Of a DNA stretch of 64,000 nucleotides, positions 8,101 through 52,434 are shown in pieces (the first letter of the stretch is position 1; each line of letters begins with the position of its first letter). The DNA comes from Candidatus Kaiserbacteria bacterium (lineage in GTDB: Bacteria > Patescibacteriota > Minisyncoccia > Phycocordibacterales > Phycocordibacteraceae): positions 2,365 through 66,364 of the forward strand of contig JAHFMN010000002.1 in assembly GCA_023264445.1 (NCBI GenBank). Direction: 5' to 3'. Under the pieces are notes generated by a model. That model saw only the letters and a program-made list of their open reading frames with translations. It was not told the origin of the DNA and made no database searches. The position numbers were made by a program, and so were the translations under genes.

Positions 8101-8576
8101 GTACCGCCTGTCGTCGTACCACCGAATGCAGCGCGCGACTTAGGACCGAAGTAGCCGGCAGCAGGAGAAACACCTGCTGACGTCTGCCATGCGACTACAC
8201 CAGCCTTCGTGAGGGCACCGAAGTAGCCCGTCGCGTTTGCTGACATGTAACCGCCTGCTTTCAACGCATTCTGAAGGCAGGTGACATCTGCGCCCGTCGA
8301 GCCGACCGTAAGGTCTCTCGAGAACGAGCAGCTAGATGAAACCGAGCCGCCGCCAGTCGATACCGGAGTACCGCCTGTAAGCGATGCCTGTACGTTTGCG
8401 ATCGTCGATGCATCAGCACCGAACGAAGTAAGAAGCGAGAGAATCGACTGGACCTGTGCGTCGGTCAACGACGCCGCATGCGCCATAGGCGCAAGCGAGA
8501 GCATCGAAGTTGCCATCGCGAGTCCGGTCGCCACTGCTGCGACCTTCGCGATCGCTTTTGTAGTTACCGTTTGCAT
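5130..8576 (-). CDS. Very large secreted surface protein of about 1148 aa. It has a signal peptide, a peptidoglycan-binding (PG_binding_1-like) domain and many Thr/Ser/Gly-rich beta-sandwich (Ig-like) repeats
   Basis: Signal peptide AIAKVAAVATGLAMATSMLSLAPMAHA-AS; motif TCLQNALKAGGY...GYFGALTKAGVVAWQ; recurring domains of about 100 aa. Confidence 0.8.
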   Translation of the reverse strand: MQTVTTKAIAKVAAVATGLAMATSMLSLAPMAHAASLTDAQVQSILSLLTSFGADASTIANVQASLTGGTPVSTGGGSVSSSCSFSRDLTVGSTGADVTCLQNALKAGGYMSANATGYFGALTKAGVVAWQTSAGVSPAAGYFGPKSRAAFGGTTTGGTTVPPVSAGTGNGLKVMLASDSPNNVSLVQGQAIGGLAKFTFANPTGSDIKVTSLGFKRIGVSNDSTISNVYLYNGAKRLTDSAGVSSSAFNFNDTTGLFTVPAGQTYTISILADIAGSTSGQQIGVQLVSVSSSGTLDSSVALPITGATQTVSAATLATVAYATSVLPSASSVIPQNDYTVWQNTVTIGTRAVTMKSFQLRNIGSIDATDIINYRLYVDGVQVGTSLAGLDAKDSTITWDLSAAPVRLETGGRVVKVVGDIVNGSGNTFQFSLRRASDAQMIDTDLNQPVLATGNGSSSTGTFSARAATSATISSGTVSVTKAASSPSSNVAVSASNVKWATFEMRAAGEDVKIDNLDVQALTTLDHGLDNGKVFLNGVQVGSTKDLTDATNVNFTFGSSFILKAGQTAIVDIYADAKTTTGASYADGDSAQIQLSYTSGAANGQGQNSLSTVDVPGSNVTGNSITISSSAVTLTKYSGYGNQTIIAGTQNARLGAFTLSAGASEGVNVNTISVTLSANESASVTDLMLKDDATGAQIGTTKVTPASGSSGNSFSVNLNIPASGTKVINIYGTVKSGSEAGPWAANVDGSGTGASTGSAVTFGDATATTATLQTITLGTAALSGAVGVSPDDTIVVAGSTHVKVGSFDFTSQYSSFTVDKVNIKIPNGAATSVTSVILSYPNASGTQTESTAVLALPSTSQVYATATFTGLSFFVPKNTTKKLDVYVSVPTIESGATSGSAISSVLDWNEGFRATDSAGTASTTIAGADLNGAGTTGKGTLYVRKSAPTISAVALDSTALTGGSNQVLGRFKVTADAAGDIGWAKLAFNINKTAAITIGATSTVKLWQGSNSIGGSFATTTAATIGAALESFPVTAAAGASNLNLVFTPTSEQTVPAGTSLTYELRGTIAGVTTSGQNVLDVSIANPQTTASTTATAAQVGTDAGTTPSFTWTDKSSISTVHSTATSDWASDYLVKNLPLTIGTRSASI

Positions 8577-8974
8577 AACAATTGTTAATGATTTTAGACG
8601 CACGTGATAATCAATGTTGGTTTCGCACGAGTTTAGAGAACCTGACGCACGTTCACTTTTACACTACCCCACAGCGCACGGCATCGACCAGTACGCCATG
8701 GGTTAGTTGGCAAGGGTTGATGTCTCGTTGTGACGAGACTATTTAGTTATCAAAGTACGCCCAAGGGGAACAAAAGCGTCCCCGCAAGGACTAGGATTAG
8801 TATATAGCGGGTGAGCCTGTTCCTAGGGGCTCCATGTGGATAACGATAGAAAGTAAGAAACGGAAAAAAGACCGGAAAACGGCCTCTTTTTTCGCCCTTA
8901 TGTCCTAGTCGCCATCACGGGGAGTATAGTAGCAAATACGAGGTCCCAAGTCAAAATATTACAAAATCTGCGTA

Positions 8975-9820
8975 TCAGGCGATAGAATAAGTGCTCCAAC
9001 GACGCTCTCCTTTTTTCAGCACTTTCCCTGTGTTAATGAGAACCATAAGTTCGCGCTGGATAGTTTTTTCTGAGACACCGCGCACCAGTGTAGAAATGTC
9101 CTTTATGCTCGCTATACCTTTAGTCCCTATAACGGACAATATTGCCTGTTGTCTGTCCTTTACTCGTCCTTCAGGTGTCGGCTCTATGTCCTTTAAATGA
9201 CCTTTATAAACAGTCTTGATTTGGCGGTCTTGTTGTCGCCTCGGCGTGTGACTCGACTCCTCTCTCATCGTTTGCGAAAGCGTATTCTTTGCGATAACAG
9301 AGAGCGTCGGTGTCTCATCAAGAGAGAGCCTTGGTTCTTCATAGGAGGCGATTTCTTGCAGGAGCGCATGCGTCTCTCGGGTAATCAGCTCGGCATTCAT
9401 CGAAGAAAGCAAGTGACTCGTGCGCGCCAAAGAAAGGAAGCTCGAAAGGGCTAGGAGTTCATGGGAAAGCACGGCGCGAGCAGCACCGGGTGGAAGCATC
9501 GCCGCATCTATAAGTCCGATAGCAATGGCGTCAATACGATTCTTCAAGGACACTGAGCTCTCGAACGCCGGTGTAATAAGGTGAACTGCTTTTGCGAGTC
9601 GTTCAGCTTTCTTATATATAAAGACTCTACGTATGTCCTTTTCAAATATGTTATTAAATATATTCTTTTCTAGGACAATATCATCTATTTGCCCATGTCT
9701 TACACTTGTTTGTATTTTACGTATTTCAGTGCTTTGACCTTTATATGATTGTCCTTGTCTCATACTGTATCGGACAGTATACCCCGAGAGGTGTTCCCTG
9801 CAAGCCCAAACGAGCACCAA
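8975..9820 (-). CDS. Hypothetical protein with a C-terminal winged-helix HTH domain (DeoR/MarR-like); the start is uncertain
   Basis: C-terminus QQAILSVIGTKGIASIKDISTLVRGVSEKTIQRELMVLINTGKVLKKG. The 5' 250 nt is markedly AT-rich, so the true start may be internal. Confidence 0.5.
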   Translation of the reverse strand: MVLVWACREHLSGYTVRYSMRQGQSYKGQSTEIRKIQTSVRHGQIDDIVLEKNIFNNIFEKDIRRVFIYKKAERLAKAVHLITPAFESSVSLKNRIDAIAIGLIDAAMLPPGAARAVLSHELLALSSFLSLARTSHLLSSMNAELITRETHALLQEIASYEEPRLSLDETPTLSVIAKNTLSQTMREESSHTPRRQQDRQIKTVYKGHLKDIEPTPEGRVKDRQQAILSVIGTKGIASIKDISTLVRGVSEKTIQRELMVLINTGKVLKKGERRWSTYSIA

Positions 9821-9959
9821 AAGAAGACTCTGCAGCTAGTTTTGATGCATAGGAAACTTGGGAAATGAACAGTGGTCGTGAAATATCCTTCCGTAGAGAC
9901 CCGTACATGCCCTCTCCACCCTAGTTTTGCTAAGCTCTCGTATTAAGCGGTGATATACT

Positions 9960-12191
9960 GTGTGCATCATGAGTCGCGGCAATGGCAGAAACGGTAATGG
10001 CGCTAAGAGAGGGCGTGCGCGAGAGGAAGAAGTCAAGGAATACGATATGCTCATTCGCTATGCTTCGGCGATTGTACTCCTCGCTGCGGGTGTCTTGCTC
10101 ACTCTTTCCATATTCGGCGCTGCGGGTCCGGTCGGGACTATCGTATTCACTACCAGTTATGCCATCGTGGGGATCGGGGCGTTTCTCCTTCCTTTCGCTT
10201 TGATAGCAGTCGGTCTGTATGCGGGATTCGGACGTCCAGCGCTTGAGCCTCTTACTGCCTCCGGCCTTCTCATTACACTCGCCTCGATTCTCGCCTTTGC
10301 GGGCCTCTTTCCCGGTTCAGACTTTGGGGGGAAAGCCGGCTCGTGGGAAGGAGCTATGCTCGTCGGATTCTTCGGCTTCTGGGGAGCACTCGTCCTGCTT
10401 ATCGCTTCTATCGCCATCGGCGTCGCTATCGTGGCGGATCTCGAGGCGCTTGGAGTGCTTCTCGGCGAGAATGTACTCTCGCTGTGGCAGCGTATTCGGC
10501 CAGCACGCAGACAAGATGAAGAGGGGGAGTTGGAAGAAGAGTTTTCCGACGTCGTCGGCGTTCCAGAAGATGAGGAAGACGCATATGAAGAGGAACCGGG
10601 AGAAAATGATTCTTCAGCGGATACCGAGCCGACGATAACCGTCTTCAATCGTTCACAAGGTGCCCAAGGAACGGGCATAGCGAACTTTGATGCCGAGTAT
10701 GAGGCGCCGCCGCTCTCCATCCTCGGCGCTGATCGCGGACGCCCGGGCGTGGGAGACATAAAGGCGAATGCAAACATCATCAAGCGTACATTCCAGAACT
10801 TCGGCATTCACCTTGAAATGGATGAGGTCTCGGTCGGTCCGACTGTCACGCGATATGCAGTGAAGCCGGCTGAGGGTGTGCGTCTTTCCAAGATCGTATC
10901 GCTCGCGAATAATCTGGAGCTCGCGCTTGCGGCCCATCCGGTGCGCATTGAGGCGCCGATTCCTGGCAAATCACTCGTGGGTATCGAGGTACCAAACACA
11001 ACTAAGGCGATGGTCGGACTTGGCGGTCTTCTCTCTGCACCGGAATGGTCTGACAGCACGAAACCTCTGCTTGCCGCGCTTGGACGCGATATCACCGGCA
11101 CACCACACTATGTGAACATCGCGAAGATGCCGCACGGACTTGTCGCGGGAGCCACAGGCTCTGGAAAGTCCGTTGCTATCCATGCGCTCATTACGTCCCT
11201 CCTCTATCGGAACGGTCCGAATCAGCTGCGCTTTATCATGATTGACCCGAAGCGGGTAGAACTCACTGCCTATAACGGCATCCCGCATCTGCTTACACCA
11301 GTCATCACCGATCCAAAGAAAACCATCCTTTCCCTCAAGTGGGCGGCAAAGGAAATGGAACGTCGATACAATCTCCTTGAAGCAGAACACGTGCGCGACA
11401 TTGACTCCTATCATTCCTCCGTCTATGAGCCGGCAAAAAAGAGTCGGGCCGAAGAGATGCCTGAAGCCCTTCCCTTCATCGTCATCGTCATCGATGAGCT
11501 TGCTGACATCATGCATAGTTACCCGCGAGAGCTTGAAGCATCTATTGTGCGCCTCGCACAGATGTCGCGCGCTGTCGGCATCCATCTAGTGCTTTCGACC
11601 CAGCGTCCATCGGTCAACGTCATCACCGGCCTCATCAAGGCGAACGTGCCGACGCGCATGGCGCTCCAGGTCGCTTCACAGATCGATTCTCGCACCATTC
11701 TTGACGGCTCCGGCGCTGAGACTCTGCTTGGCGCCGGCGACATGCTCTACCTCTCAAGCGATATGCAGAAGCCAGTACGCATACAGACCGCATTCATCAG
11801 CGAAGGAGAAGTGAAAAAAGTGGTTAGTTACATCAAAAGCCACAATGTCGGCGACCTCTCAAGTATCGACCTAGGCGGATCCAGTACAAACGGAGACCAT
11901 ACCGACGTCATCGGGCTTACGCACGGTACCGGAGATGATGACGATATTGATGATGATTTGTATGAGGATGCACGGGTCGCAGTCGCAGAGGCAGGTCGCG
12001 CTTCGACTTCCTATCTGCAACGGAAACTGAAGATCGGATATTCGCGTGCCGCGCGACTAATGGATGTGCTTGAAGAACGTGGCATCATCGGCCCTGCCGA
12101 TGGCAGTAAGCCGCGCGAGGTGCTTCTACGCGGATCATCCCCTACAAGCGTCGCTTCCCAGAGCACGAAAGATGAGGAGGAATTCTTTTAG
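9960..12191 (+). CDS. ftsK: DNA translocase FtsK/SpoIIIE
   Basis: Four N-terminal TM helices, an acidic linker, Walker A GATGSGKS, Walker B VIVIDELAD, and a C-terminal gamma winged-helix domain. Confidence 0.9.
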   Translation: MCIMSRGNGRNGNGAKRGRAREEEVKEYDMLIRYASAIVLLAAGVLLTLSIFGAAGPVGTIVFTTSYAIVGIGAFLLPFALIAVGLYAGFGRPALEPLTASGLLITLASILAFAGLFPGSDFGGKAGSWEGAMLVGFFGFWGALVLLIASIAIGVAIVADLEALGVLLGENVLSLWQRIRPARRQDEEGELEEEFSDVVGVPEDEEDAYEEEPGENDSSADTEPTITVFNRSQGAQGTGIANFDAEYEAPPLSILGADRGRPGVGDIKANANIIKRTFQNFGIHLEMDEVSVGPTVTRYAVKPAEGVRLSKIVSLANNLELALAAHPVRIEAPIPGKSLVGIEVPNTTKAMVGLGGLLSAPEWSDSTKPLLAALGRDITGTPHYVNIAKMPHGLVAGATGSGKSVAIHALITSLLYRNGPNQLRFIMIDPKRVELTAYNGIPHLLTPVITDPKKTILSLKWAAKEMERRYNLLEAEHVRDIDSYHSSVYEPAKKSRAEEMPEALPFIVIVIDELADIMHSYPRELEASIVRLAQMSRAVGIHLVLSTQRPSVNVITGLIKANVPTRMALQVASQIDSRTILDGSGAETLLGAGDMLYLSSDMQKPVRIQTAFISEGEVKKVVSYIKSHNVGDLSSIDLGGSSTNGDHTDVIGLTHGTGDDDDIDDDLYEDARVAVAEAGRASTSYLQRKLKIGYSRAARLMDVLEERGIIGPADGSKPREVLLRGSSPTSVASQSTKDEEEFF

Positions 12192-44591: not shown

Positions 44592-44630
44592 ATACGTATC
44601 AACCTGTATAACATGAATTTTAGTTTCAAG

Positions 44631-44703
44631 TGCACCCTGAGGGGCTCGAACCCCCGACCTTCGCAGTGTAAATGCGCTGCTCTACCAACTGAGCTAAGGG
44701 TGC
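44631..44703 (-). tRNA. tRNA-Val (anticodon UAC)
   Basis: Manual cloverleaf, 73 nt, anticodon loop UUUACAC; one G-A mismatch at positions 27-43. Confidence 0.8.
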
Positions 44704-44724
44704 ATCATTCCATTATCGCACTTG

Positions 44725-44806
44725 TGGGCATGGGGAGACTCGAACTCCCAAGTCTTGCGACATACGCTTCTGAGACGTACGCGTATACCAATTCCGCCAC
44801 ATGCCC
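44725..44806 (-). tRNA. tRNA-Leu (anticodon CAG), type II
   Basis: Manual cloverleaf, 82 nt, anticodon loop CUCAGAA. Confidence 0.85.
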
Positions 44807-44901
44807 TTCGCTAAGACCATACTATATGAAGGGGTGCCAAACACAAACAGCATTGTATTTCAGGTATATTCTGTTAGCGTGGCCCGAGAAAGGAGGTTCA
44901 C

Positions 44902-45099
44902 ATGTTCCCGAAAGCGACAGATATCATAGCGGCGAGCGTGTTCGCGCTGATAGCATCATGCATCTTCGGCTTCGTCATCGCGGCCATCATTCAGCCATGG
45001 GTTGGCTTGAAGACCGGTTGGATCGTTTCATTTCTCGTGCTTCTCTGTATATCTGAATTGCCAATCATCGGCATATGGGTACGGGATCGGTTTTTCTAG
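44902..45099 (+). CDS. Small membrane protein, 65 aa, two TM helices
   Basis: AGGAGG Shine-Dalgarno 5 nt upstream; hydrophobic. Confidence 0.45.
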   Translation: MFPKATDIIAASVFALIASCIFGFVIAAIIQPWVGLKTGWIVSFLVLLCISELPIIGIWVRDRFF

Positions 45100-45136
45100 C
45101 GGCGCATACTTCTGCAAGTATGCGCCGCTTCACTAT

Positions 45137-45310
45137 AGTGCACCGTATCGAGGCACATCTCGAACTTTTCCTAAGAGAGCCAAGAGGTGCGTCCATAAAC
45201 AAGTGGGGAGAGCTTGCTCTGAGTGCATGAGCTATCGCGGCCTGGCGAAGAAGATCATGCGTGGTCTGGATGAGAACCATGATGAAAATACCCAGCTTGA
45301 CTGAATAATT
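45137..45310. repeat. Repeat R1 copy a, about 150-170 bp. The first 75 nt are about 96% identical to copy b at 45836-45990, and the 5' edge resembles the tRNA-Arg 3' end (tGGTGCaCCG)
   Basis: Pairwise alignment by eye. Confidence 0.7.
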
Positions 45311-45357
45311 ATGGGTTGTAAGGTGCAGAGAGAAGTTCCCCACGCCACAACCTAAGG

Positions 45358-45636
45358 GTGAATCACATGGACAAAGAAGATAAAGAGTTGGTACTGGAGT
45401 TCTGTCGTGAAATGAAGGAGTTGATGGCAACAAAAACGGATCTCGGAGCACTGGCGAAGAAAGAGGACATAAGAAGCCTGGGCGCCACTCTGGATCGCAT
45501 GATGTTGGAGAGGCATATAACAATAAGACGTATGCCTCCCGAAAATCCACCTACCGCGTGGCCGTCGAATCCATGGAGAAATGACGTGTTTCGCGCAGTA
45601 CGAGCTGGTTCAGTATCAGGCCCGCGCTACCGCTAA
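45358..45636 (+). CDS. Cassette ORF X1, about 90 aa, with a coiled-coil-like N-terminus (start GTG 45358 or ATG 45367)
   Basis: Followed by a strong terminator; unique sequence flanked by conserved blocks. Confidence 0.4.
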   Translation: MNHMDKEDKELVLEFCREMKELMATKTDLGALAKKEDIRSLGATLDRMMLERHITIRRMPPENPPTAWPSNPWRNDVFRAVRAGSVSGPRYR

Positions 45637-45658
45637 TGAGAAAGTTGAAAATGAGCCT

Positions 45659-45688
45659 GAAGGCCACGAATGTGGCCTTTGCTTTTCG
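45659..45688 (+). terminator. Intrinsic terminator: AAGGCCACG-AA-TGTGGCCTT followed by TGCTTTTC
   Basis: 9 bp stem. Confidence 0.6.
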
Positions 45689-45689
45689 C

Positions 45690-45835
45690 AAGAGTTCGAT
45701 TCCTGTGCGGGTTGAGCTCATCCGTGTCTCGTCTGGCAGGATGTCACGTCATTTGGAGAAAAGGAAAACGGCTCGTAGGTAAGCCGTTTTCCTTTGGATG
45801 TGGGGGAAATGTGCCTGTGTGGCACGTTTCCACTC
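45690..45835. repeat. Repeat R3 copy a, about 150 bp. It is homologous to 46425-46576 and contains an 11-bp inverted repeat GGAAAACGGCT/AGCCGTTTTCC and a GTGCC...GGCAC hairpin
   Basis: Alignment by eye; a 1-nt indel argues for a noncoding function. Confidence 0.7.
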
Positions 45836-45990
45836 CTGGTGCACCGTATCGAGGCACAACTCGAACTTTTCCTAAGAGAGCTAAGAGGTGCGTCCATAAA
45901 CAAGTGAGGAGAGCGTGCCCTCGTTGCGCGAATTACCGCGGCTTGGCGAAAGAGATCATACATGGCCTCGGCGACTTGACTGAAGAGGCA
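45836..45990. repeat. Repeat R1 copy b; begins cctGGTGCACCG
   Basis: See R1a. Confidence 0.7.
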
Positions 45991-46083
45991 GGAGTTGTAG
46001 AGTAGTGAAAGAACCCCTTTCTTTCCTTGTCAGCAAGAAGTCCGCATATCCGATGTGAATTTCTACTGATGAAGGAGACAGGC

Positions 46084-46377
46084 ATGGGTGCAACGGAAGT
46101 AAAAAACGAGTCATCGACTGTACCGCGATATGTCGTGGAGAATCCCCGAGTGCGGTTTGGAACTCTTCAAGAACCCGTCTTGTTCAAACTTTGCAATCCA
46201 AGCCGCAACGAGAATGGGAGGATTTATCTGAAGTTCTGGAGGGGGCGTTGGCCGATGGGTGTATGTTTGGGAGAGGATGGTAACCCTGTCCAATCTTGTT
46301 CATCGAATGACGGGACTCTCATAGCGCCAACACCCCTCACCTGGGTAGTTGTCGTTAAGAAGCACACCGTGGAATAA
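46084..46377 (+). CDS. Cassette ORF X2, 97 aa (MGATEVKNESS...), a beta-rich small protein
   Basis: AAGGAGA Shine-Dalgarno 6 nt upstream; followed by a strong terminator. Confidence 0.45.
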   Translation: MGATEVKNESSTVPRYVVENPRVRFGTLQEPVLFKLCNPSRNENGRIYLKFWRGRWPMGVCLGEDGNPVQSCSSNDGTLIAPTPLTWVVVVKKHTVE

Positions 46378-46397
46378 CTGGGGCACGCTGTGAATCT

Positions 46398-46424
46398 GAG
46401 GCCACGAACGTGGCCTCTTTTCTA
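46398..46424 (+). terminator. Intrinsic terminator: GAGGCCACG-AA-CGTGGCCTC followed by TTTTCTATTC
   Basis: Perfect 9 bp stem. Confidence 0.6.
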
Positions 46425-46576
46425 TTCAAAAAGTTCGATTCCTGTGTGGGTTGAGCTCATCCATGTCTCGCCTGGCACGATTTCGTACCACTGGAGAAAG
46501 GAAAAGTGGCTTACAGGTAAGGCGCTTTTCCTCTTGATGACGTGAGAATGTGCCTACCTGGCACATTCTCTAATCC
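46425..46576. repeat. Repeat R3 copy b, directly abutting the 3' end of tRNA-Arg(TCT)
   Basis: See R3a; stems preserved with U-G / C-G substitutions. Confidence 0.7.
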
Positions 46577-46651
46577 TGGTGCCCCGAGCTGGAATCGAAC
46601 CAACATCAACGGCTTAGAAGTCCGCTGCACTATCCATTGTGCTATCGGGGC
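46577..46651 (-). tRNA. tRNA-Arg (anticodon UCU) with an encoded CCA
   Basis: Manual cloverleaf, 75 nt; anticodon loop CUUCUAA; A31-G39 mismatch. Confidence 0.8.
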
Positions 46652-46685
46652 GATGTCACTCCCTCTACCCTAACTCATTGCGAGG

Positions 46686-46994
46686 TCATTGCGAAGGGTC
46701 GGTGAAGCGATACACGCCCGTCTCGTATTTTGCTTCTTCGGTTGCATGATTAAGGAAAACAGTACGGATTTCTTCGAGGGAGGAGTCAGTGAGGGACGCT
46801 CCTGTTCTGGCTGACGGCGTACCGATAATCCCTCCACCCGCAACCGTGTCAAATGCCCATATATTCCACACAATGATGCCAGCAAGCGCTATGGCCCCGA
46901 GCGTCAGTAGGATGAGCCAGTCGCGCACCGGATCAAGCTCCGTATCAATATGTACACGCTTCAGGAAAGAATTGAGGAAATTAGAGGTGGGCAT
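46686..46994 (-). CDS. Hypothetical membrane protein of 102 aa, the last gene of the pilMNO operon (possible PilP analogue)
   Basis: One TM helix; co-directional with pilO and overlapping its stop. Confidence 0.45.
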   Translation of the reverse strand: MPTSNFLNSFLKRVHIDTELDPVRDWLILLTLGAIALAGIIVWNIWAFDTVAGGGIIGTPSARTGASLTDSSLEEIRTVFLNHATEEAKYETGVYRFTDPSQ

Positions 46995-50404: not shown

Positions 50405-50878
50405 ATGAATCGCGCGGTCCTTTTAGAATGGGAAGGGAGAGAATACGACCATAATCCGAAGCATAGCGACTGGTATTGGGCGCTTGGCATCATCGCAGTC
50501 GCCGGTGCGCTTGCCGCAATACTCTTCGGGAATTACCTCCTTGCTGTGCTCATCATCATCGCGACTGGCGCGCTCGCTCTCCACGCCGCCAAAGAGCCAC
50601 CTTTGCATCGCTTTAGTCTGGTTGAGCAGGGTATCGTCATCGGGGACGAATTACATCCATTTGAACGGATGATTTCATTCTCTGTCCTTGAAGATGTCGA
50701 GGGAGCCCTTGCGCCCATGCTCTCTATCAAGACTGAAAGCTGGTTCTCACCACATCTCATCATCCCGCTTGAGGGCGTTGACCCCGACACCGTGTACGCA
50801 TATTTTCTCCAGCGTGTTGATGAAGATGAACACCATCACACGTTCGTTGACTTGGTGGCGGCGTGGCTCGGGTTCTGA
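50405..50878 (+). CDS. Hypothetical membrane protein, 157 aa
   Basis: Two TM helices then a soluble domain. Confidence 0.5.
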   Translation: MNRAVLLEWEGREYDHNPKHSDWYWALGIIAVAGALAAILFGNYLLAVLIIIATGALALHAAKEPPLHRFSLVEQGIVIGDELHPFERMISFSVLEDVEGALAPMLSIKTESWFSPHLIIPLEGVDPDTVYAYFLQRVDEDEHHHTFVDLVAAWLGF

Positions 50879-51079: not shown

Positions 51080-51154
51080 GCTCTCGTCGTTCAATGGATA
51101 GGACACCTCCCTCCGAAGGAGGAGATACAGGTTCGATTCCTGTTGAGAGCACCA
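51080..51154 (+). tRNA. tRNA-Arg (anticodon CCG) with an encoded CCA
   Basis: Manual cloverleaf, 75 nt, anticodon loop CUCCGAA. Confidence 0.85.
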
Positions 51155-51174
51155 AATGTATGACAAAGTCATAC

Positions 51175-51206
51175 AGAGAAAACGGCTCTTACGAGCTGTT
51201 TTCTCT
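51175..51206. terminator. Intrinsic terminator after the tRNA-Arg pair: AGAGAAAACGGCTC-TTAC-GAGCTGTTTTCTCT
   Basis: 14 bp stem (one G-U pair) followed by a T-run. Confidence 0.6.
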
Positions 51207-51341
51207 TTGGCAATTTTTGAATGCCTGGCACACCCCAAGAGGACATCGAACTTCTCTACGATGCACTTACTAGTTTTATTGTTTGGTTAAAAGAAAGAGC
51301 ATCCCGGAGGATGCTCTGCGATGTTCATTCTGCACGCGACA

Positions 51342-51509
51342 TCAGGCAGTTGTGCCTGTCGTGCCCTGCTCAGCGTTGTGGTTTGCCACGACCTTCTCGA
51401 TGGCATCGGCCAATATCTCGGCCGCACCGGCGATAGCTTTCTCGCTCGTGCCCGGCGGGACCAGCTCCCTGATATCGTCAGTGACTTTCTGCAAAAGCTC
51501 CGGATTCAT
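51342..51509 (-). CDS. Small hypothetical protein of about 55 aa (MNPELLQKVTDDIRELVPPGTSEKAIAGAAEILADAIEKVV...)
   Basis: GGAGGA directly upstream of the ATG; below the ORF-track size cutoff. Confidence 0.35.
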   Translation of the reverse strand: MNPELLQKVTDDIRELVPPGTSEKAIAGAAEILADAIEKVVANHNAEQGTTGTTA

Positions 51510-51670
51510 ATGTCCTCCAATCGTTATAGAAGCCTGGGGTTGAACCTCTCCCCATACAGTACTATCTCAAAACGAGTGGTCAAGAGGACGCATGCGCAGC
51601 TACAAGAATGTGCGCCCCACGCACATTTACCCGCCGTGCGCTCCTCGGCATCAGGAGCGACACTCTTTGC

Positions 51671-51844
51671 ATGACATGTCGTGTCGCATTCACCATATCG
51701 TTGCCACCCGACTTGGCGAGGAAGCTAGCTGAGGGCATGGATCGGGAGCACCGCACCCGGTCGGAGTTCGTGCGGGAGGCCATTCGCCAATATCTTTCCT
51801 CCCATGAGGAAAGATATTCCAAAGATATCGCCCCTCGTTCGTGA
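51671..51844 (+). CDS. Ribbon-helix-helix (CopG/Arc/MetJ family) DNA-binding protein, 57 aa
   Basis: Beta-strand VAFTISLPPDLARKL followed by helices EHRTRSEFVREAIRQYL. Confidence 0.65.
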   Translation: MTCRVAFTISLPPDLARKLAEGMDREHRTRSEFVREAIRQYLSSHEERYSKDIAPRS

Positions 51845-51848
51845 GCTC

Positions 51849-51989
51849 ATGCCAGGAGCAACAGAGGAAGAGTTGCAAGAGGCAACTGAGAACCTGCGTG
51901 CCTACCTAGCGGTGGCCTACAGGATCTTCAGGAGGCTGGAAGCTGAAAAAAGCGGAACGAACGAGGATAGCGATTTGGACGGCGTGTAG
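51849..51989 (+). CDS. Small ORF of 46 aa starting 4 nt after the RHH stop (MPGATEEELQEATENLRAYLAVAYRIFRRLEAEK...)
   Basis: Tight coupling to the RHH gene; helical propensity; weak support. Confidence 0.3.
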   Translation: MPGATEEELQEATENLRAYLAVAYRIFRRLEAEKSGTNEDSDLDGV

Positions 51990-52182
51990 CAGGTGCTACA
52001 TCCTGAGAGAGTTCGGCAGCATCGGCCGGGCGCTCTTTGTCTATGACCGCATCATAAATCTTCTCTACGAACTTGCGACGTTTACACTGTTTAGTTCGAG
52101 GTCTGTCCCGAAACGGTGCACAAATTGATTGACTTTCCCGGATGCTAAAGTTGGAGAGGAATCCTTACCTAGGAGACGAGTC

Positions 52183-52434
52183 ATGGACGATCCTGTCCTT
52201 GTTTCCGCAGAGCGTTGGTGGAAGAAACTCCACAACCCTCTCGGCGCAACATTCCGCATCACCTTTGCTGGGCGTCCGAAGCCAGTCATCCCGTCGGATC
52301 GGGAGATTGTGCAGAGCGTCGTCGCAACGGTCGCATCAGATGAAGTGAGTCTTCATCAAGGTCACTTCATCACCGAAGACGATGTCGCGAAGCTTAGGGC
52401 CGAAGTTCTCGCACACGATTTTCAACGGAAGTAA
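52183..52434 (+). CDS. Hypothetical protein of 83 aa (start MDDPVLVSAERWW)
   Basis: AGGAGA Shine-Dalgarno 6 nt upstream of the internal ATG. Confidence 0.45.
   Translation: MDDPVLVSAERWWKKLHNPLGATFRITFAGRPKPVIPSDREIVQSVVATVASDEVSLHQGHFITEDDVAKLRAEVLAHDFQRK

What the first reader, a model, noticed from the sequence alone, without database searches (positions are those of the whole stretch)
44600..46660. Tandem two-unit cassette array flanked by tRNA genes, with edges resembling the tRNA-Arg 3' end
Between tRNA-Val/tRNA-Leu(CAG) and tRNA-Arg(TCT) lie two consecutive units of about 700 bp. Each is built from conserved block R1 (about 150 bp), a unique small ORF with a Shine-Dalgarno sequence (X1 or X2, unrelated to each other), a 9-bp-stem terminator, and conserved block R3 (about 150 bp with preserved hairpins). 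R3b abuts the 3' end of tRNA-Arg. The junction R3a/R1b (cctGGTGCaCCG) and the start of R1a (taGTGCaCCG) imitate the tRNA 3' end cctGGTGCcCCG. This is the architecture left by serial site-specific insertions at a tRNA gene, yet no integrase is present and the cargo is a single tiny ORF per unit. Alternative readings are a new kind of mini mobile cassette or a hypervariable small-protein locus. R1 keeps an open reading frame between copies, with several synonymous differences, but lacks a start codon.
Basis: seen in the sequence. Interest (0 to 1): 0.7.

Follow-up and report, generated by a model that had tools for sequence, protein, structure and literature searches.

The report
Recombinase-less mini gene cassettes at tRNA-Arg
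Two ~700-bp self-contained gene cassettes, each a promoter, one small gene and a terminator block but no recombinase, sit in tandem right after a tRNA-Arg gene of a tiny-genome (Patescibacteria) bacterium, joined at a 28-bp site that imitates a tRNA 3' end; this looks like a small, undescribed family of piggy-backing integrative elements.

Summary
Units A (45138-45846) and B (45838-46586) share block R1 (85% over 130 nt) and block R3 (77% over 190 nt) around unrelated ORFs X1 and X2. They lie directly downstream of tRNA-Arg(TCT). A relative (L010) has only 34 bp between tRNA-Arg and tRNA-Leu, so the window carries a ~1.77-kb insertion.

All similarity breaks at one point, ...ACGGTGCAC|. This is the edge of a 28-nt core found in R1a, R1b, a diverged islet behind tRNA-Arg(CCG) (52094-52121), contig L014 (next to a truncated large serine recombinase) and contig L023. 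L023 holds an X2 homolog followed by the same R3|R1 junction and another cassette, so the module recurs in another genome.

Each cassette has a conserved promoter (TTGACw-N16-TAnnGT, found only at these two places in 64 kb), a cargo ORF and three hairpins. The junction lies inside a small basic ORF (orfJ, ~64 aa), which is intact only where R3 meets R1.

Best reading (about 0.55): serial site-specific integration of recombinase-less mini-cassettes, with the recombinase supplied in trans. It is unidentified; a serine recombinase is the candidate. Mobility is inferred, not shown. Integron attC, split tRNA and group I intron are rejected; DGR is excluded by inspection only. I rate it a new variant of a known kind.

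The parts
46577..46651 (-). tRNA-Arg(TCT), the proposed integration target (attB side). It reads ...TCGGGGCAC|CAGG, so CCA is encoded here, unlike in relatives.
   Evidence: ARAGORN and Rfam, 65 bits. Relatives read GCAC|AG or GCGC|AA.
46393..46586 (+). R3b. It holds the cargo terminator hairpin (46398-46417), the conserved block AGTTCGATTCCTGTGTGGGTTGAGCTCATCC (from 46431), hairpin 2 (~46499-46532), hairpin 3 (46544-46570) and a 5' stub of orfJ fused to the tRNA end.
46084..46377 (+). Cargo ORF X2 (97 aa, predicted all-beta, strong Shine-Dalgarno GAAGGAGA). It belongs to a rare protein family.
   Evidence: Four homologs among 1.84 billion representatives. One of them sits in the same cassette scaffold in L023. 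Structure model.
45976..46003 (+). Promoter of cassette B: TTGACT-N16-TAGAGT.
   Evidence: This pattern class occurs only twice in the whole window.
45811..46005 (+). orfJ, the intact copy (64 aa from GTG 45811). It spans the R3a|R1b junction: MPVWHVSTPGAPYRGTTRTFPKRAKRCVHKQVRRACPRCANYRGLAKEIIHGLGDLTEEAGVVE.
   Evidence: The frame is open in all copies. The CxxC..Y..LAKKI..GL motif is kept in L023 at 57% nt identity with an excess of third-position changes.
45839..45866 (-). 28-nt core, copy b: GTTCGAGTTGTGCCTCGATACGGTGCAC. With the following CA it mimics a tRNA 3' end. This is the proposed attP-type half-site.
45838..46005 (+). R1b: the core, the 3' part of orfJ and the promoter.
45655..45846 (+). 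R3a. It holds the terminator hairpin (45661-45678), the conserved block (45692-45730), hairpin 2 (45760-45795), hairpin 3 (45805-45831) and the junction TGGTGCAC (45837-45844).
45367..45636 (+). Cargo ORF X1 (89 aa, predicted helical, no homologs found).
45297..45324 (+). Promoter of cassette A: TTGACT-N16-TAAGGT.
45138..45330 (+). R1a: the core (45138-45165 on the minus strand), a 5'-truncated orfJ (to the stop at 45302-45304) and the promoter. Its left edge, GTGCAC|TATAGTG, is the distal junction with the old chromosomal flank.
44902..45129 (+). X0, a 65-aa membrane-like ORF, plus a 14-bp-stem hairpin (45098-45129). It lies between R1a and tRNA-Leu. It is lineage-specific and has no R1 or R3.
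51155..52121 (+). Islet 2, a probable third, diverged family member downstream of tRNA-Arg(CCG) (51080-51154). It has an R3-like hairpin-2 module (51178-51210), small ORFs including a CopG/RHH gene (51608-51844), and a core copy (52094-52121, 23/28) ending ...ACGGTGCAC|.

Best explanation
The locus is a tandem accretion of two members of a family of miniature (~0.7 kb), recombinase-less integrative cassettes. They are inserted at the very 3' end of tRNA-Arg(TCT) in a Patescibacteria genome. Written on the tRNA strand, each element is: left end CAGGA, then hairpin 3, hairpin 2, a conserved block and the cargo terminator (together R3); then a cargo ORF transcribed convergently to the tRNA from its own sigma70-like promoter; then R1, which ends in a 28-bp core, GTTCGAG.TGTGCCTCGATACGGTGCAC. 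In the circular or tandem form the core is followed by CA, so the junction spells a complete tRNA-like 3' end (...ACGGTGCACCA). It also reconstitutes a ~64-aa basic CxxC ORF (orfJ) that spans the junction. I infer that a site-specific recombinase supplied in trans exchanges strands within or next to GCAC, between this attP-like junction and the tRNA end ...GGGGCAC|. The first insertion gave tRNA|R3-X1-R1a|old flank. The second went in at the regenerated tRNA end and gave tRNA|R3b-X2-R1b|R3a-X1-R1a|flank. R3 also insulates the convergent tRNA and cargo transcripts. Shown: the anatomy, the empty site in a relative, the common breakpoint, the recurrence of the module elsewhere and the conserved promoters. 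Inferred: mobility as 0.7-kb units, the identity of the recombinase (a large serine recombinase is the leading candidate) and the function of orfJ and the cargo.
For: (1) Insertion: relative L010 has tRNA-Arg(tct), a 34-bp spacer, tRNA-Leu and tRNA-Val. L012 and L013 carry other inserts at the same tRNA cluster, and none has R1 or R3. (2) Relatives' tRNA-Arg reads GCAC|AG, while the window reads GCAC|CAGG. In the window, His, both Leu, Val, Arg(gcg) and Lys do not encode CCA; the two islet-bearing tRNA-Arg genes and tRNA-Ser(tga) do. (3) One common breakpoint: similarity stops exactly after ...ACGGTGCAC in R1a (|TATAGTG), R1b (|CAGGAGTGG, the start of R3a), islet 2 (|AAATTGATTG) and L014 (|CGTAGTAGG). 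Reciprocally, R3 ends either on the core (R3a, L023) or on the tRNA (R3b). (4) The core is 28/28 identical in L014/L008 and 30/32 in L023 although the flanks are unrelated or ~43% diverged. The only two core differences among copies are non-synonymous in the overlapping ORF, so the constraint is on the DNA. (5) L023 (a different sample, GC 0.49, unrelated flank gene) has an X2 homolog at 44% aa identity, then R3 (72%, E 5e-20), the core and R1, a promoter and the start of the next cassette. (6) R3a and R3b (77%) are barely closer to each other than to L023's R3 (71-72%), and the cargos are unrelated, so this is not a recent local duplication. (7) An X2 homolog also occurs without R1 or R3 in L021, so the scaffold and the cargo are separable. 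(8) TTGAC[AT]-N16-TA..GT occurs only twice in the 64-kb window, before X1 and X2, and at the two equivalent places in L023. (9) In L014 the core lies ~240 bp from a truncated large serine recombinase, and L020 shares that recombinase fragment and the small ORF but diverges near the core position. (10) Identical sequence in four assemblies.
Against: There is no direct evidence of movement. All population contigs recovered are identical, and no empty-site, single-unit or circular-junction variant was seen, although the look-ups work by exact protein match and would miss most variants. No recombinase was found among about 60 window ORFs checked, and some remain unknown or unscanned. Only 4 bp (GCAC) are shared between the tRNA-Arg end and the core, which is atypical for tyrosine integrases that target tRNA genes. 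Strict attP x attB serine integrases do not normally make tandem arrays. The link to a serine recombinase rests on one locus holding a truncated gene. Only three full R3/R1 copies are known, from two populations. The evidence for islet 2 is weak (core E 0.018, hairpin module E ~0.002). The whole-database DNA scans used a single 20-mer, so the family's true distribution is unknown.
Confidence: 0.55

Rival explanations
1. This is a non-mobile tandem gene-family locus. An ancestral two-gene unit (orfJ plus a small downstream gene, with shared regulatory DNA) was duplicated in place. The downstream genes were then replaced or diverged beyond recognition, and the tRNA-end resemblance is incidental.
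For: orfJ looks like a real small gene that recurs with each unit. In L023 the promoter and 5'UTR of consecutive cassettes are similar. No recombinase gene was found in the window and no population variation was seen.
Against: The cargos are unrelated while the flanks are 77-85% identical, with sharp boundaries. The first orfJ copy is cut exactly at the core edge and the last R3 is fused exactly there to the tRNA end. The same core, cut at the same base, occurs in unrelated contexts in L014 and islet 2. The core's conservation is at the DNA level, not the protein level. The insert is absent in relatives. R3a and R3b are about as diverged from each other as from L023's R3.
Confidence: 0.2
2. 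The units are decay remnants of much larger integrated elements (prophage or island ends with att sites) that integrated serially at tRNA-Arg. Most of their content, including the integrase, was then deleted. The 0.7-kb units never moved as such.
For: Serial integration with partial-tRNA separators and degraded integrases is well documented, for example in tycheposons (bioRxiv 10.1101/2020.12.28.424599). L014 shows the core beside a truncated recombinase.
Against: Two independent deletions would have had to leave the same compact promoter-ORF-terminator architecture with intact signals. L023 shows the same compact unit in another genome. The cargo ORFs are intact, with Shine-Dalgarno sequences and terminators.
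Confidence: 0.15
3. The units move by single-strand HUH (IS200/IS605- or IS91-like) transposition. They insert 3' of a hairpin followed by the tetranucleotide GCAC. The element's own right end (inverted repeat, 10 nt, GCAC) and the T-arm plus acceptor end of tRNA-Arg genes both present this target, which would explain the tandem arrays.
For: There is no target-site duplication and no terminal inverted repeats. The boundaries are sharp after GCAC. Subterminal hairpins lie 1-9 nt inside the left end. The right end finishes in the same GCAC as the target.
Against: The left-end and right-end hairpins are unrelated in sequence, whereas TnpA recognises similar hairpins at both ends (knowledge of the family). 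The inverted repeat in the core is not stable (z -0.4 to -1.2). No Y1/TnpB genes were found. Both insertion sites in this window are tRNA-Arg ends although GCAC is common in the genome.
Confidence: 0.05
4. This is an integron-like cassette array without an integrase (a CALIN), with R3-R1 acting as a giant attC.
For: The units are single small ORFs separated by conserved structured DNA, and R3 contains GTTGAGC, which matches GTTRRRY.
Against: No RYYYAAC partner lies within 50-160 nt on either strand in any of the three copies. The inter-ORF module is ~330-450 bp, against 57-141 bp for attC (from knowledge). The cassettes carry their own promoters. No IntI gene was found.
Confidence: 0.02
5. R1 is the 3' exon of a tRNA gene split by a group I intron, or a pseudo-tRNA left by duplication of the tRNA gene.
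For: The core looks like a T-loop plus acceptor end. Group I introns are common in Patescibacteria tRNA genes (PMC13011429).
Against: There is no Rfam group I intron or tRNA hit, even at E <= 10. The arm has a 6-nt loop and 5-bp stem instead of a T-arm, and no 7-nt complementary 5' acceptor strand lies upstream. R1 does not fold better than shuffles (z -0.7 to +0.9).
Confidence: 0.01

Closest known systems
Tycheposons and their remnants in Prochlorococcus genomic islands (Hackl et al.; bioRxiv 10.1101/2020.12.28.424599)
   Same: They occur in a streamlined genome and integrate at the 3' part of specific tRNA genes, including tRNA-Arg(tct). Successive integrations push older elements outward, leaving tandem elements separated by a tRNA-like repeat. 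Degraded members without an integrase are found.
   Different: Tycheposons are kilobases long and encode their own tyrosine (or serine) recombinase and replication genes. Their separators are true partial tRNA copies of about 40 nt. Here the units are 0.7 kb with one ORF, the separator only mimics a tRNA end (with 6 extra nt), just 4 bp match the target, and the junction lies inside a small ORF.
Cis-mobilizable elements (CIMEs) and site-specific accretion of ICEs/IMEs (e.g. Streptococcus; reviewed in PMC5704250, listed in ICEberg PMC6323972)
   Same: These are elements bounded by att sites that lack integrase and conjugation genes. They sit in tandem with related elements at a tRNA or gene 3' end and depend on a recombinase in trans (from knowledge of the family; the papers were located but not read in detail).
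   Different: CIMEs are usually several kilobases long, derive from ICEs or IMEs, and are flanked by identical att repeats recognised by a tyrosine or serine integrase of a co-resident ICE. No such partner is seen here, and the host phylum and the size class are different.
IMEX elements (integrative mobile elements exploiting host Xer recombinases)
   Same: They are integrase-less and form tandem arrays at one chromosomal site through a ~28-bp site that mimics the host target. The recombinase is supplied by the host (from knowledge).
   Different: IMEXs target dif and carry dif-like 11-6-11 sites. Here the target is a tRNA 3' end and the breakpoint lies at the edge of the core, not in the spacer between its inverted repeats.
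Integron gene cassettes / CALINs
   Same: They are arrays of single small ORFs of unrelated function separated by conserved structured recombination sites, and a local integrase can be absent.
   Different: The attC signature is absent, the cassettes carry their own promoters, the module is 3-5 times longer than an attC, and the array is anchored on a tRNA gene.
Large serine recombinase attP/attB logic (A118/Bxb1/phiC31-type integrases)
   Same: The half-site-sized (28 bp) conserved core ends at the crossover and needs very little identity with the target. The core equals the tRNA-type half-site (GTTCGA...GCAC, 22 nt) with 6 extra nt, reminiscent of the roughly 5-bp outward shift of the zinc-ribbon-domain motif in attP versus attB half-sites (from knowledge). 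A truncated recombinase of this family lies beside the core in L014.
   Different: The two halves of the putative attP are not detectably symmetric. Tandem arrays are not expected from strict attP x attB chemistry. No intact cognate recombinase was linked to the site.

Membership tests
tRNA-targeting integrative elements (genomic islets made by site-specific recombination) | The insert is absent from the same site in related genomes (an empty site exists). | tested here: met
   L010 has tRNA-Arg, a 34-bp spacer and tRNA-Leu; the window has 1.77 kb there.
tRNA-targeting integrative elements (genomic islets made by site-specific recombination) | The insert starts at or inside the tRNA 3' end, and a tRNA-end-like repeat marks the distal end. 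| tested here: met
   The proximal junction is GCAC|CAGG and the distal junctions are core...GGTGCAC|. The repeat is a mimic (alignment score 7-10 against a null of 3.4 +/- 1.5), not a true copy.
tRNA-targeting integrative elements (genomic islets made by site-specific recombination) | An integrase or recombinase gene lies within the element. | tested here: not met
   Each unit holds only orfJ and one small ORF. No recombinase Pfam hit was found in the window.
tRNA-targeting integrative elements (genomic islets made by site-specific recombination) | Excision or circularisation is demonstrated, or presence/absence varies within a population. | tested here: inconclusive
   Only identical contigs were recovered by exact-protein look-up.
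Cis-mobilizable (recombinase-less, att-bounded) elements in tandem accretion | The element is bounded by related att-type sites, has no recombinase of its own, and is arrayed head-to-tail with relatives. | tested here: met
Cis-mobilizable (recombinase-less, att-bounded) elements in tandem accretion | A cognate autonomous element or recombinase exists in the same genome. | not testable with these tools
   Only 64 kb of the genome is available. The one lead is a truncated large serine recombinase next to the core in L014.
Integron cassette array (CALIN) | An attC site with paired R'' (RYYYAAC) and R' (GTTRRRY) boxes 50-160 nt apart lies between ORFs. | tested here: not met
   No such pair exists in any of the three inter-ORF modules on either strand.
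IS200/IS605-type ssDNA transposons or their miniature derivatives | Similar subterminal hairpins at both ends, and a Y1 transposase or TnpB somewhere nearby. | tested here: not met
   The left-end hairpin 3 and the right-end inverted repeat are unrelated, and the latter is not stable. No Y1/TnpB hits were found.
Group I intron-split tRNA gene | A group I intron core lies between matching tRNA 5' and 3' exons. | tested here: not met
   There is no RF00028 hit at E <= 10 and no 5' acceptor complement.
Diversity-generating retroelement (TR/VR repeat pair) | Differences between the repeats are restricted to adenines of the template, with a reverse transcriptase nearby. | not tested
   By eye, the 19 R1a/R1b differences listed include all substitution types. 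I did not tabulate them per base. No reverse transcriptase Pfam hit was found in the window.

The most novel reading that the evidence does not exclude
Patescibacteria carry an undescribed class of miniature, recombinase-less gene cassettes, each about 0.7 kb with its own promoter, one ORF and an insulating terminator block. They are stacked at tRNA-Arg 3' ends by a trans-acting (possibly large serine) recombinase. This recombinase would recognise a 28-bp attP half-site built as a tRNA 3' end with 6 extra base pairs, placed inside a small basic ORF (orfJ) that is intact only in the circular or tandem form. That would make orfJ a built-in sensor or regulator of integration state. Functionally this would be an integron-like gene-capture platform anchored on tRNA genes in ultra-small genomes.
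Probability: 0.3. Interest if true: 0.75.

Novelty: new variant of a known kind. Interest (0 to 1): 0.58.

Why it matters
Patescibacteria have tiny genomes, and how they gain and exchange accessory genes is still poorly described. Here the three tRNA clusters examined are all insertion hotspots, and one family of inserts is reduced to a promoter, a gene and a terminator plus a 28-bp tRNA-mimicking site. If these units really move, they are among the smallest cargo-carrying integrative elements known. They would provide a cassette-exchange mechanism analogous to integrons but anchored on tRNA genes. They would also give a defined, testable pair of sites for discovering the recombinase: a 60-bp R3|R1 junction and the tRNA-Arg 3' end. 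A recombinase with a compact tRNA-end target could be useful as a tool. If they do not move, the locus is still a clean example of how tRNA-proximal islets are built and decay in streamlined genomes.

Tried and rejected
Rfam at gathering threshold on the window, and at E <= 10 on 44800-46700, found only the tRNAs. R1 as a structured RNA was rejected because its fold z-scores are -0.7 to +0.9.

Whole-collection scans with the 20-mer GTGCACCGTATCGAGGCACA gave two chance hits in GC-rich coding DNA from the genome collection (L006, L007). The metagenome collection gave one chance hit (L009) and one true hit (L008). Five DNA-pattern scans and one protein-pattern scan of viral contigs found nothing. 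Phage and plasmid collections gave no match.

A chimeric protein query made of X0, X1, X2 and the R1 peptides returned nothing, not even X1 itself. That negative is therefore uninformative and cost one capped search. Pfam and PHROGs found nothing for X0, X1, X2 or orfJ, and PDB had no significant hit for orfJ. Single-sequence AlphaFold models of X1 and X2 were too poor (pLDDT 53 and 57) to justify fold searches.

The tRNA-Gly(ccc) next to an intact serine recombinase in L014 was tested as the source of the core, but its 3' end is unrelated. ORF88 of L014 shows no similarity to the 61-aa ORF of islet 2. I noticed by eye an apparent resemblance between R3 hairpin 3 and the L014/L020 sequence upstream of the core, but it is not significant (nhmmer E 0.54) and I do not claim it.

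Pair-counting on the MAFFT alignment of R3 was abandoned because hairpin 2 is out of register, so each copy was folded separately. A possible terminal-inverted-repeat relation between the core and the conserved R3 block (both GTTCGA...6-bp palindrome) was considered, but it is too weak to claim. The attC, group I intron and HUH models were tested as listed under the rivals. The DGR model was only inspected by eye against the differences listed, not formally tested.


Full report
OBSERVATION. The window comes from a Patescibacteria genome (Paceibacterota/Kaiserbacteria-like, judged from the names attached to UppS homologs). Three tRNA genes lie on the minus strand: tRNA-Val(tac) 44630-44703, tRNA-Leu(cag) 44724-44806 and tRNA-Arg(tct) 46577-46651. 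Between tRNA-Leu and tRNA-Arg are two direct-repeat units. R1a (45138-45267) and R1b (45839-45968) are 85% identical over 130 nt (E 1e-38). R3a (45661-45846) and R3b (46399-46586) are 77% identical over 190 nt (E 1e-33). They flank the unrelated ORFs X1 (45367-45636) and X2 (46084-46377). The same sequence, at 100% identity, occurs in two ENA assemblies and two Logan assemblies, so it is not an assembly artefact. The described object is real and far beyond chance.

THE ARRAY IS AN INSERTION AT THE 3' END OF tRNA-Arg. I fetched syntenic loci from relatives whose UppS is 74-76% identical. In L010, tRNA-Arg(tct), tRNA-Leu(cag) and tRNA-Val(tac) are packed together with only 34 bp between Arg and Leu. 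The window has about 1.77 kb there. L012 and L013 carry other inserts in the same cluster: a LAGLIDADG-like ORF with an inverted tRNA-Leu, and a bestrophin-like gene plus a PemK toxin-antitoxin pair. None of them has R1 or R3. The relatives' tRNA-Arg genes do not encode CCA (GGGGCAC|AG, GGGGCAC|AG, GGGGCGC|AA), whereas the window reads GGGGCAC|CAGGATTAG. In the window, His, both Leu, Val, Arg(gcg) and Lys do not encode CCA; the two tRNA-Arg genes followed by islets and tRNA-Ser(tga) do. The foreign DNA therefore starts immediately after ...GCAC and supplies the 'CA'.

ONE COMMON BREAKPOINT AND A 28-NT CORE. On the tRNA strand, R1 ends in GTTCGAG(A/T)TGTGCCTCGATACGGTGCAC. This core is 28/28 identical in an unrelated metagenome contig (L008, the same locus as L014) and 30/32 identical in another (L023). 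A 23/28 copy lies at 52094-52121, about 970 bp downstream of tRNA-Arg(ccg) and on its strand. In every copy similarity ends exactly after ...ACGGTGCAC: R1a |TATAGTGAAG, R1b |CAGGAGTGG (the start of R3a), islet 2 |AAATTGATTG, and L014 |CGTAGTAGG. The L014 case creates a perfect 14-bp palindrome, TACGGTG|CACCGTA. Reciprocally, the three R3 copies are homologous up to ...(C/A)TGGTGC. After that, R3a and L023's R3 continue into the core, while R3b continues into the tRNA. So R3b|tRNA and flank|R1a are hybrid junctions, and R3a|R1b is the junction expected of a circular or tandem form. The implied empty site is tRNA-Arg...GCAC|TATAGTGAAG.... The core followed by CA spells ...ACGGTGCACCA, a tRNA-like 3' end. 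Among the window's tRNAs it resembles tRNA-Val(tac) best (GTTCGAG...CCTC...GGTGCAC; alignment score 10 against a shuffled mean of 3.4 +/- 1.5), with tRNA-Arg(tct) scoring 7. It carries 6 more nucleotides between GTTCGA and GCAC than a real tRNA. Only GCAC is shared with the tRNA-Arg ends.

THE MODULE RECURS ELSEWHERE WITH HOMOLOGOUS AND WITH DIFFERENT NEIGHBOURS. X2 has four homologs among 1.84 billion representative proteins. The 74-aa homolog (44% identity) lies on L023. That contig comes from a different sample, has GC 0.49 against 0.54, and its flanking 183-aa gene has no homolog in the window. There the homolog is followed by an R3 copy (72% to R3b, E 5e-20), the junction ...CCATGGTGCACCGCATCGAGGCACATCTCGAAC, an R1 copy, a promoter, and a 5'UTR like the one upstream of the homolog itself, which marks the start of a second cassette. 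The 133-aa homolog (56% identity) on L021/L022 sits between a response-regulator-like gene and pyrF, with no R1, R3, core or tRNA. Cargo and scaffold are therefore separable. R3a and R3b (77%) are hardly closer to each other than either is to L023's R3 (71-72%). Together with the unrelated cargos, this argues against a recent in-place duplication.

ANATOMY OF A UNIT. (i) Promoter: TTGAC[AT]-N16-TA..GT occurs only twice in the whole window on both strands, at 45297-45324 and 45976-46003, in front of X1 and X2. It also occurs at the two equivalent positions in L023. (ii) Cargo: one ORF with a Shine-Dalgarno sequence. Pfam and PHROGs give no hit, and single-sequence models are poor (X1 helical, X2 all-beta). 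(iii) R3: a terminator hairpin followed by a T-run; a conserved non-coding block AGTTCGATTC..GTG.GGGTTGA.CT.AT, which contains a TAG stop in L023; and two further hairpins. All three hairpins are retained in all three copies while their stems change: GGCCAC/GTGGCC becomes GCCGG/CCGGC, GG..CC becomes AA..TT, and GGAAA/TTTCC becomes GAGAA/TTCTC. Fold z-scores are -3.5 to -6.3. Single-base indels between copies rule out coding. R3 sits between the convergent tRNA and cargo transcripts, so a role as a bidirectional terminator or insulator is a reasonable inference. (iv) orfJ: the frame GGT GCA CCG (G-A-P) is open in R1a, R1b, L023 and L014, and for 64 codons in islet 2. Window and L023 share GAP(Y/H)RGT(S/T)RT, then a basic stretch of the same length (26 residues up to the first Cys of CxxC), then CxxCxxYxxLAKKIxxGL. 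In those last 20 codons, 10 amino acids are kept at 57% nucleotide identity, with an excess of third-position changes. In contrast, the only two differences inside the core codons are non-synonymous. Downstream of the core, orfJ thus behaves like a coding sequence, whereas the core itself is conserved as DNA. Start codons lie about 10 codons upstream of GAP, inside R3 hairpin 3: GTG at 45811 in the window and ATG in L023 and L014. orfJ is therefore intact (64 aa) only across R3a|R1b and in L023. It is 5'-truncated in R1a and reduced to a stub at R3b|tRNA. orfJ has no Pfam, PDB or viral-contig relatives.

WHICH RECOMBINASE? None was found among about 60 window ORFs with gene-table or Pfam information. 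They are housekeeping genes, and a few remain unknown or unscanned. In L014 the core lies about 240 bp from the C-terminal 219-244 residues of a large serine recombinase, whose homologs carry Resolvase, Recombinase and Zn_ribbon_recom domains. L020 shares that fragment and the adjacent small ORF at 78% identity but diverges just before the core position, so a breakpoint lies there too. Several features fit serine-integrase logic better than the long identity blocks of tRNA-targeting tyrosine integrases. The microhomology is only 4 bp. The core is the size of a half-site and ends at the crossover. The mimic is a tRNA end plus 6 bp, which recalls the different motif spacing in attP and attB half-sites (this last point is from my own knowledge of the family, not tested here). 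Against this, tandem arrays are not what strict attP x attB enzymes produce, and the two halves of the junction are not detectably symmetric. An HUH single-strand mechanism (target GCAC 3' of a hairpin) would explain the lack of duplications and the tandem stacking. However, the two end hairpins are unrelated, the core's inverted repeat is not stable, and both sites in this window are tRNA-Arg ends. The enzyme therefore remains unidentified.

ISLET 2. Downstream of tRNA-Arg(ccg) (51080-51154...GAGAGCAC|CAAATG) lies a hairpin and a copy of the R3 hairpin-2 module (51178-51210; blastn 84%, E 0.003; nhmmer E about 0.002). Small ORFs follow, including a CopG/RHH gene (51608-51844, Pfam E 7e-10), and then the core copy (nhmmer E 0.018) ending ...ACGGTGCAC|. 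Each hit is weak on its own, but their positions and orientations relative to a tRNA-Arg match the array. I regard islet 2 as a probable third, diverged member.

REJECTED ALTERNATIVES. Integron attC is rejected because no R''/R' pair exists in any copy. A split tRNA, a group I intron or a structured RNA is rejected because Rfam gives no hit, R1 does not fold, and no 5' acceptor strand is present (PMC13011429, read). A DGR looks unlikely: by eye the R1a/R1b substitutions are of all types, and no reverse transcriptase was found, but I did not tabulate this formally. A type I toxin-antitoxin-like UTR family does not fit because the ORFs are unrelated and not hydrophobic. A plain tandem duplication is disfavoured for the reasons given above but not excluded (0.2). 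'Remnants of large elements' remains possible (0.15).

COMPARISON AND NOVELTY. The closest known phenomena are three. The first is tandem accretion of integrative elements at tRNA genes with integrase-less members (cis-mobilizable elements). The second is tycheposons and their remnants in Prochlorococcus, which also use tRNA-Arg(tct) and stack serially. The third is IMEX elements, which are integrase-less, form tandem arrays and carry a 28-bp target mimic. The present units differ in several ways: their extreme reduction (0.7 kb, one gene with its own promoter and insulator), a tRNA-end mimic in place of a tRNA copy, the 4-bp crossover homology, a junction-spanning small ORF, and the host phylum. 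I rate this a new variant of a known kind. Mobility is inferred from comparative anatomy only.

VERDICT. Confidence in the best explanation is about 0.55, and interest is 0.58.

Noticed in passing
window 51080-52434: A second tRNA-linked islet lies behind tRNA-Arg(ccg). It holds a 55-aa ORF (51342-51509, minus strand), a CopG/RHH gene (51608-51844), an overlapping 61-aa ORF (51804-51989), the core copy at 52094-52121 and then an 83-aa ORF (52183-52434). The RHH gene and the 61-aa ORF overlap as if one of them were frameshifted.
   Followed up: partly
L014 141-177, 2361-2397, 8421-8457 (ENA ERZ27256814 k141_853603): Three copies of a 37-nt CRISPR-like repeat, GCTGCACAATAACCTTTTTGCGCACTGTTCCTGCAGG, lie next to cas1 (8783-9838) and a cas2-like gene (8490-8786). 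They are separated by 2.2 kb and 6 kb instead of spacers. The 6-kb interval holds the truncated serine recombinase, the core and a 1484-aa PG_binding protein. It looks like mobile DNA inserted into, or bracketed by, CRISPR repeats. An intact 441-aa serine recombinase (9977-11302) abuts tRNA-Gly(ccc) (11404-11475).
   Followed up: partly
L012 4015-5003; L013 8153-9980; L010 2504-5894: The same tRNA-Arg/Leu/Val cluster and the nearby tRNA-Ser(tga) are insertion hotspots in relatives. L012 has tRNA-Leu(cag) predicted on the opposite strand, followed by a LAGLIDADG-like ORF. L013 has a bestrophin-like gene between Arg and Leu and a PemK toxin pair between Leu and Val. L010 has a BglII-type endonuclease and a LexA/S24-fused methyltransferase next to tRNA-Ser.
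   Followed up: no
window 45692-45722 and 46431-46461; L023 ~1343-1373: The most conserved, non-hairpin block of R3 (AGTTCGATTCCTGTGCGGGTTGAGCTC) reads on the plus strand like the 3' end of tRNA-Arg(ccg) (GTTCGATTCCTGT..TGAG) with about 6 extra nt, and it ends in the palindrome GAGCTC. This is the same construction as the core (GTTCGAG...GTGCAC) but in the opposite orientation. Its role is unknown; it could be a second recombinase-binding site.
   Followed up: partly
window, all nine tRNA genes: Six of the nine tRNA genes do not encode the 3' CCA. The three that do are tRNA-Arg(tct), tRNA-Arg(ccg) and tRNA-Ser(tga). Two of them are followed by the islets described here. The third is followed by a 157-aa ORF of unknown function (50405-50878), which may be another insert.
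   Followed up: partly
protein P0153 (516 aa): A 516-aa protein contains six tandem repeats of the X2 motif (...KFYRGRW(S/P)LG...SST(E/D)G...LV...), so the small cargo protein X2 corresponds to a domain that can be iterated.
   Followed up: no
window 44902-45129: X0 is a 65-aa, strongly hydrophobic ORF with a good Shine-Dalgarno sequence and a 14-bp-stem hairpin. It is wedged between the array and tRNA-Leu and is absent from L010. It may be an older insertion without recognisable ends.
   Followed up: no
window 45837-45844 and 45134-45143: The junction octamer GGTGCACC is a perfect palindrome that contains an ApaLI site (GTGCAC). At R1a the flank forms another 10-bp palindrome, CACTATAGTG, which overlaps the breakpoint.
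   Followed up: no
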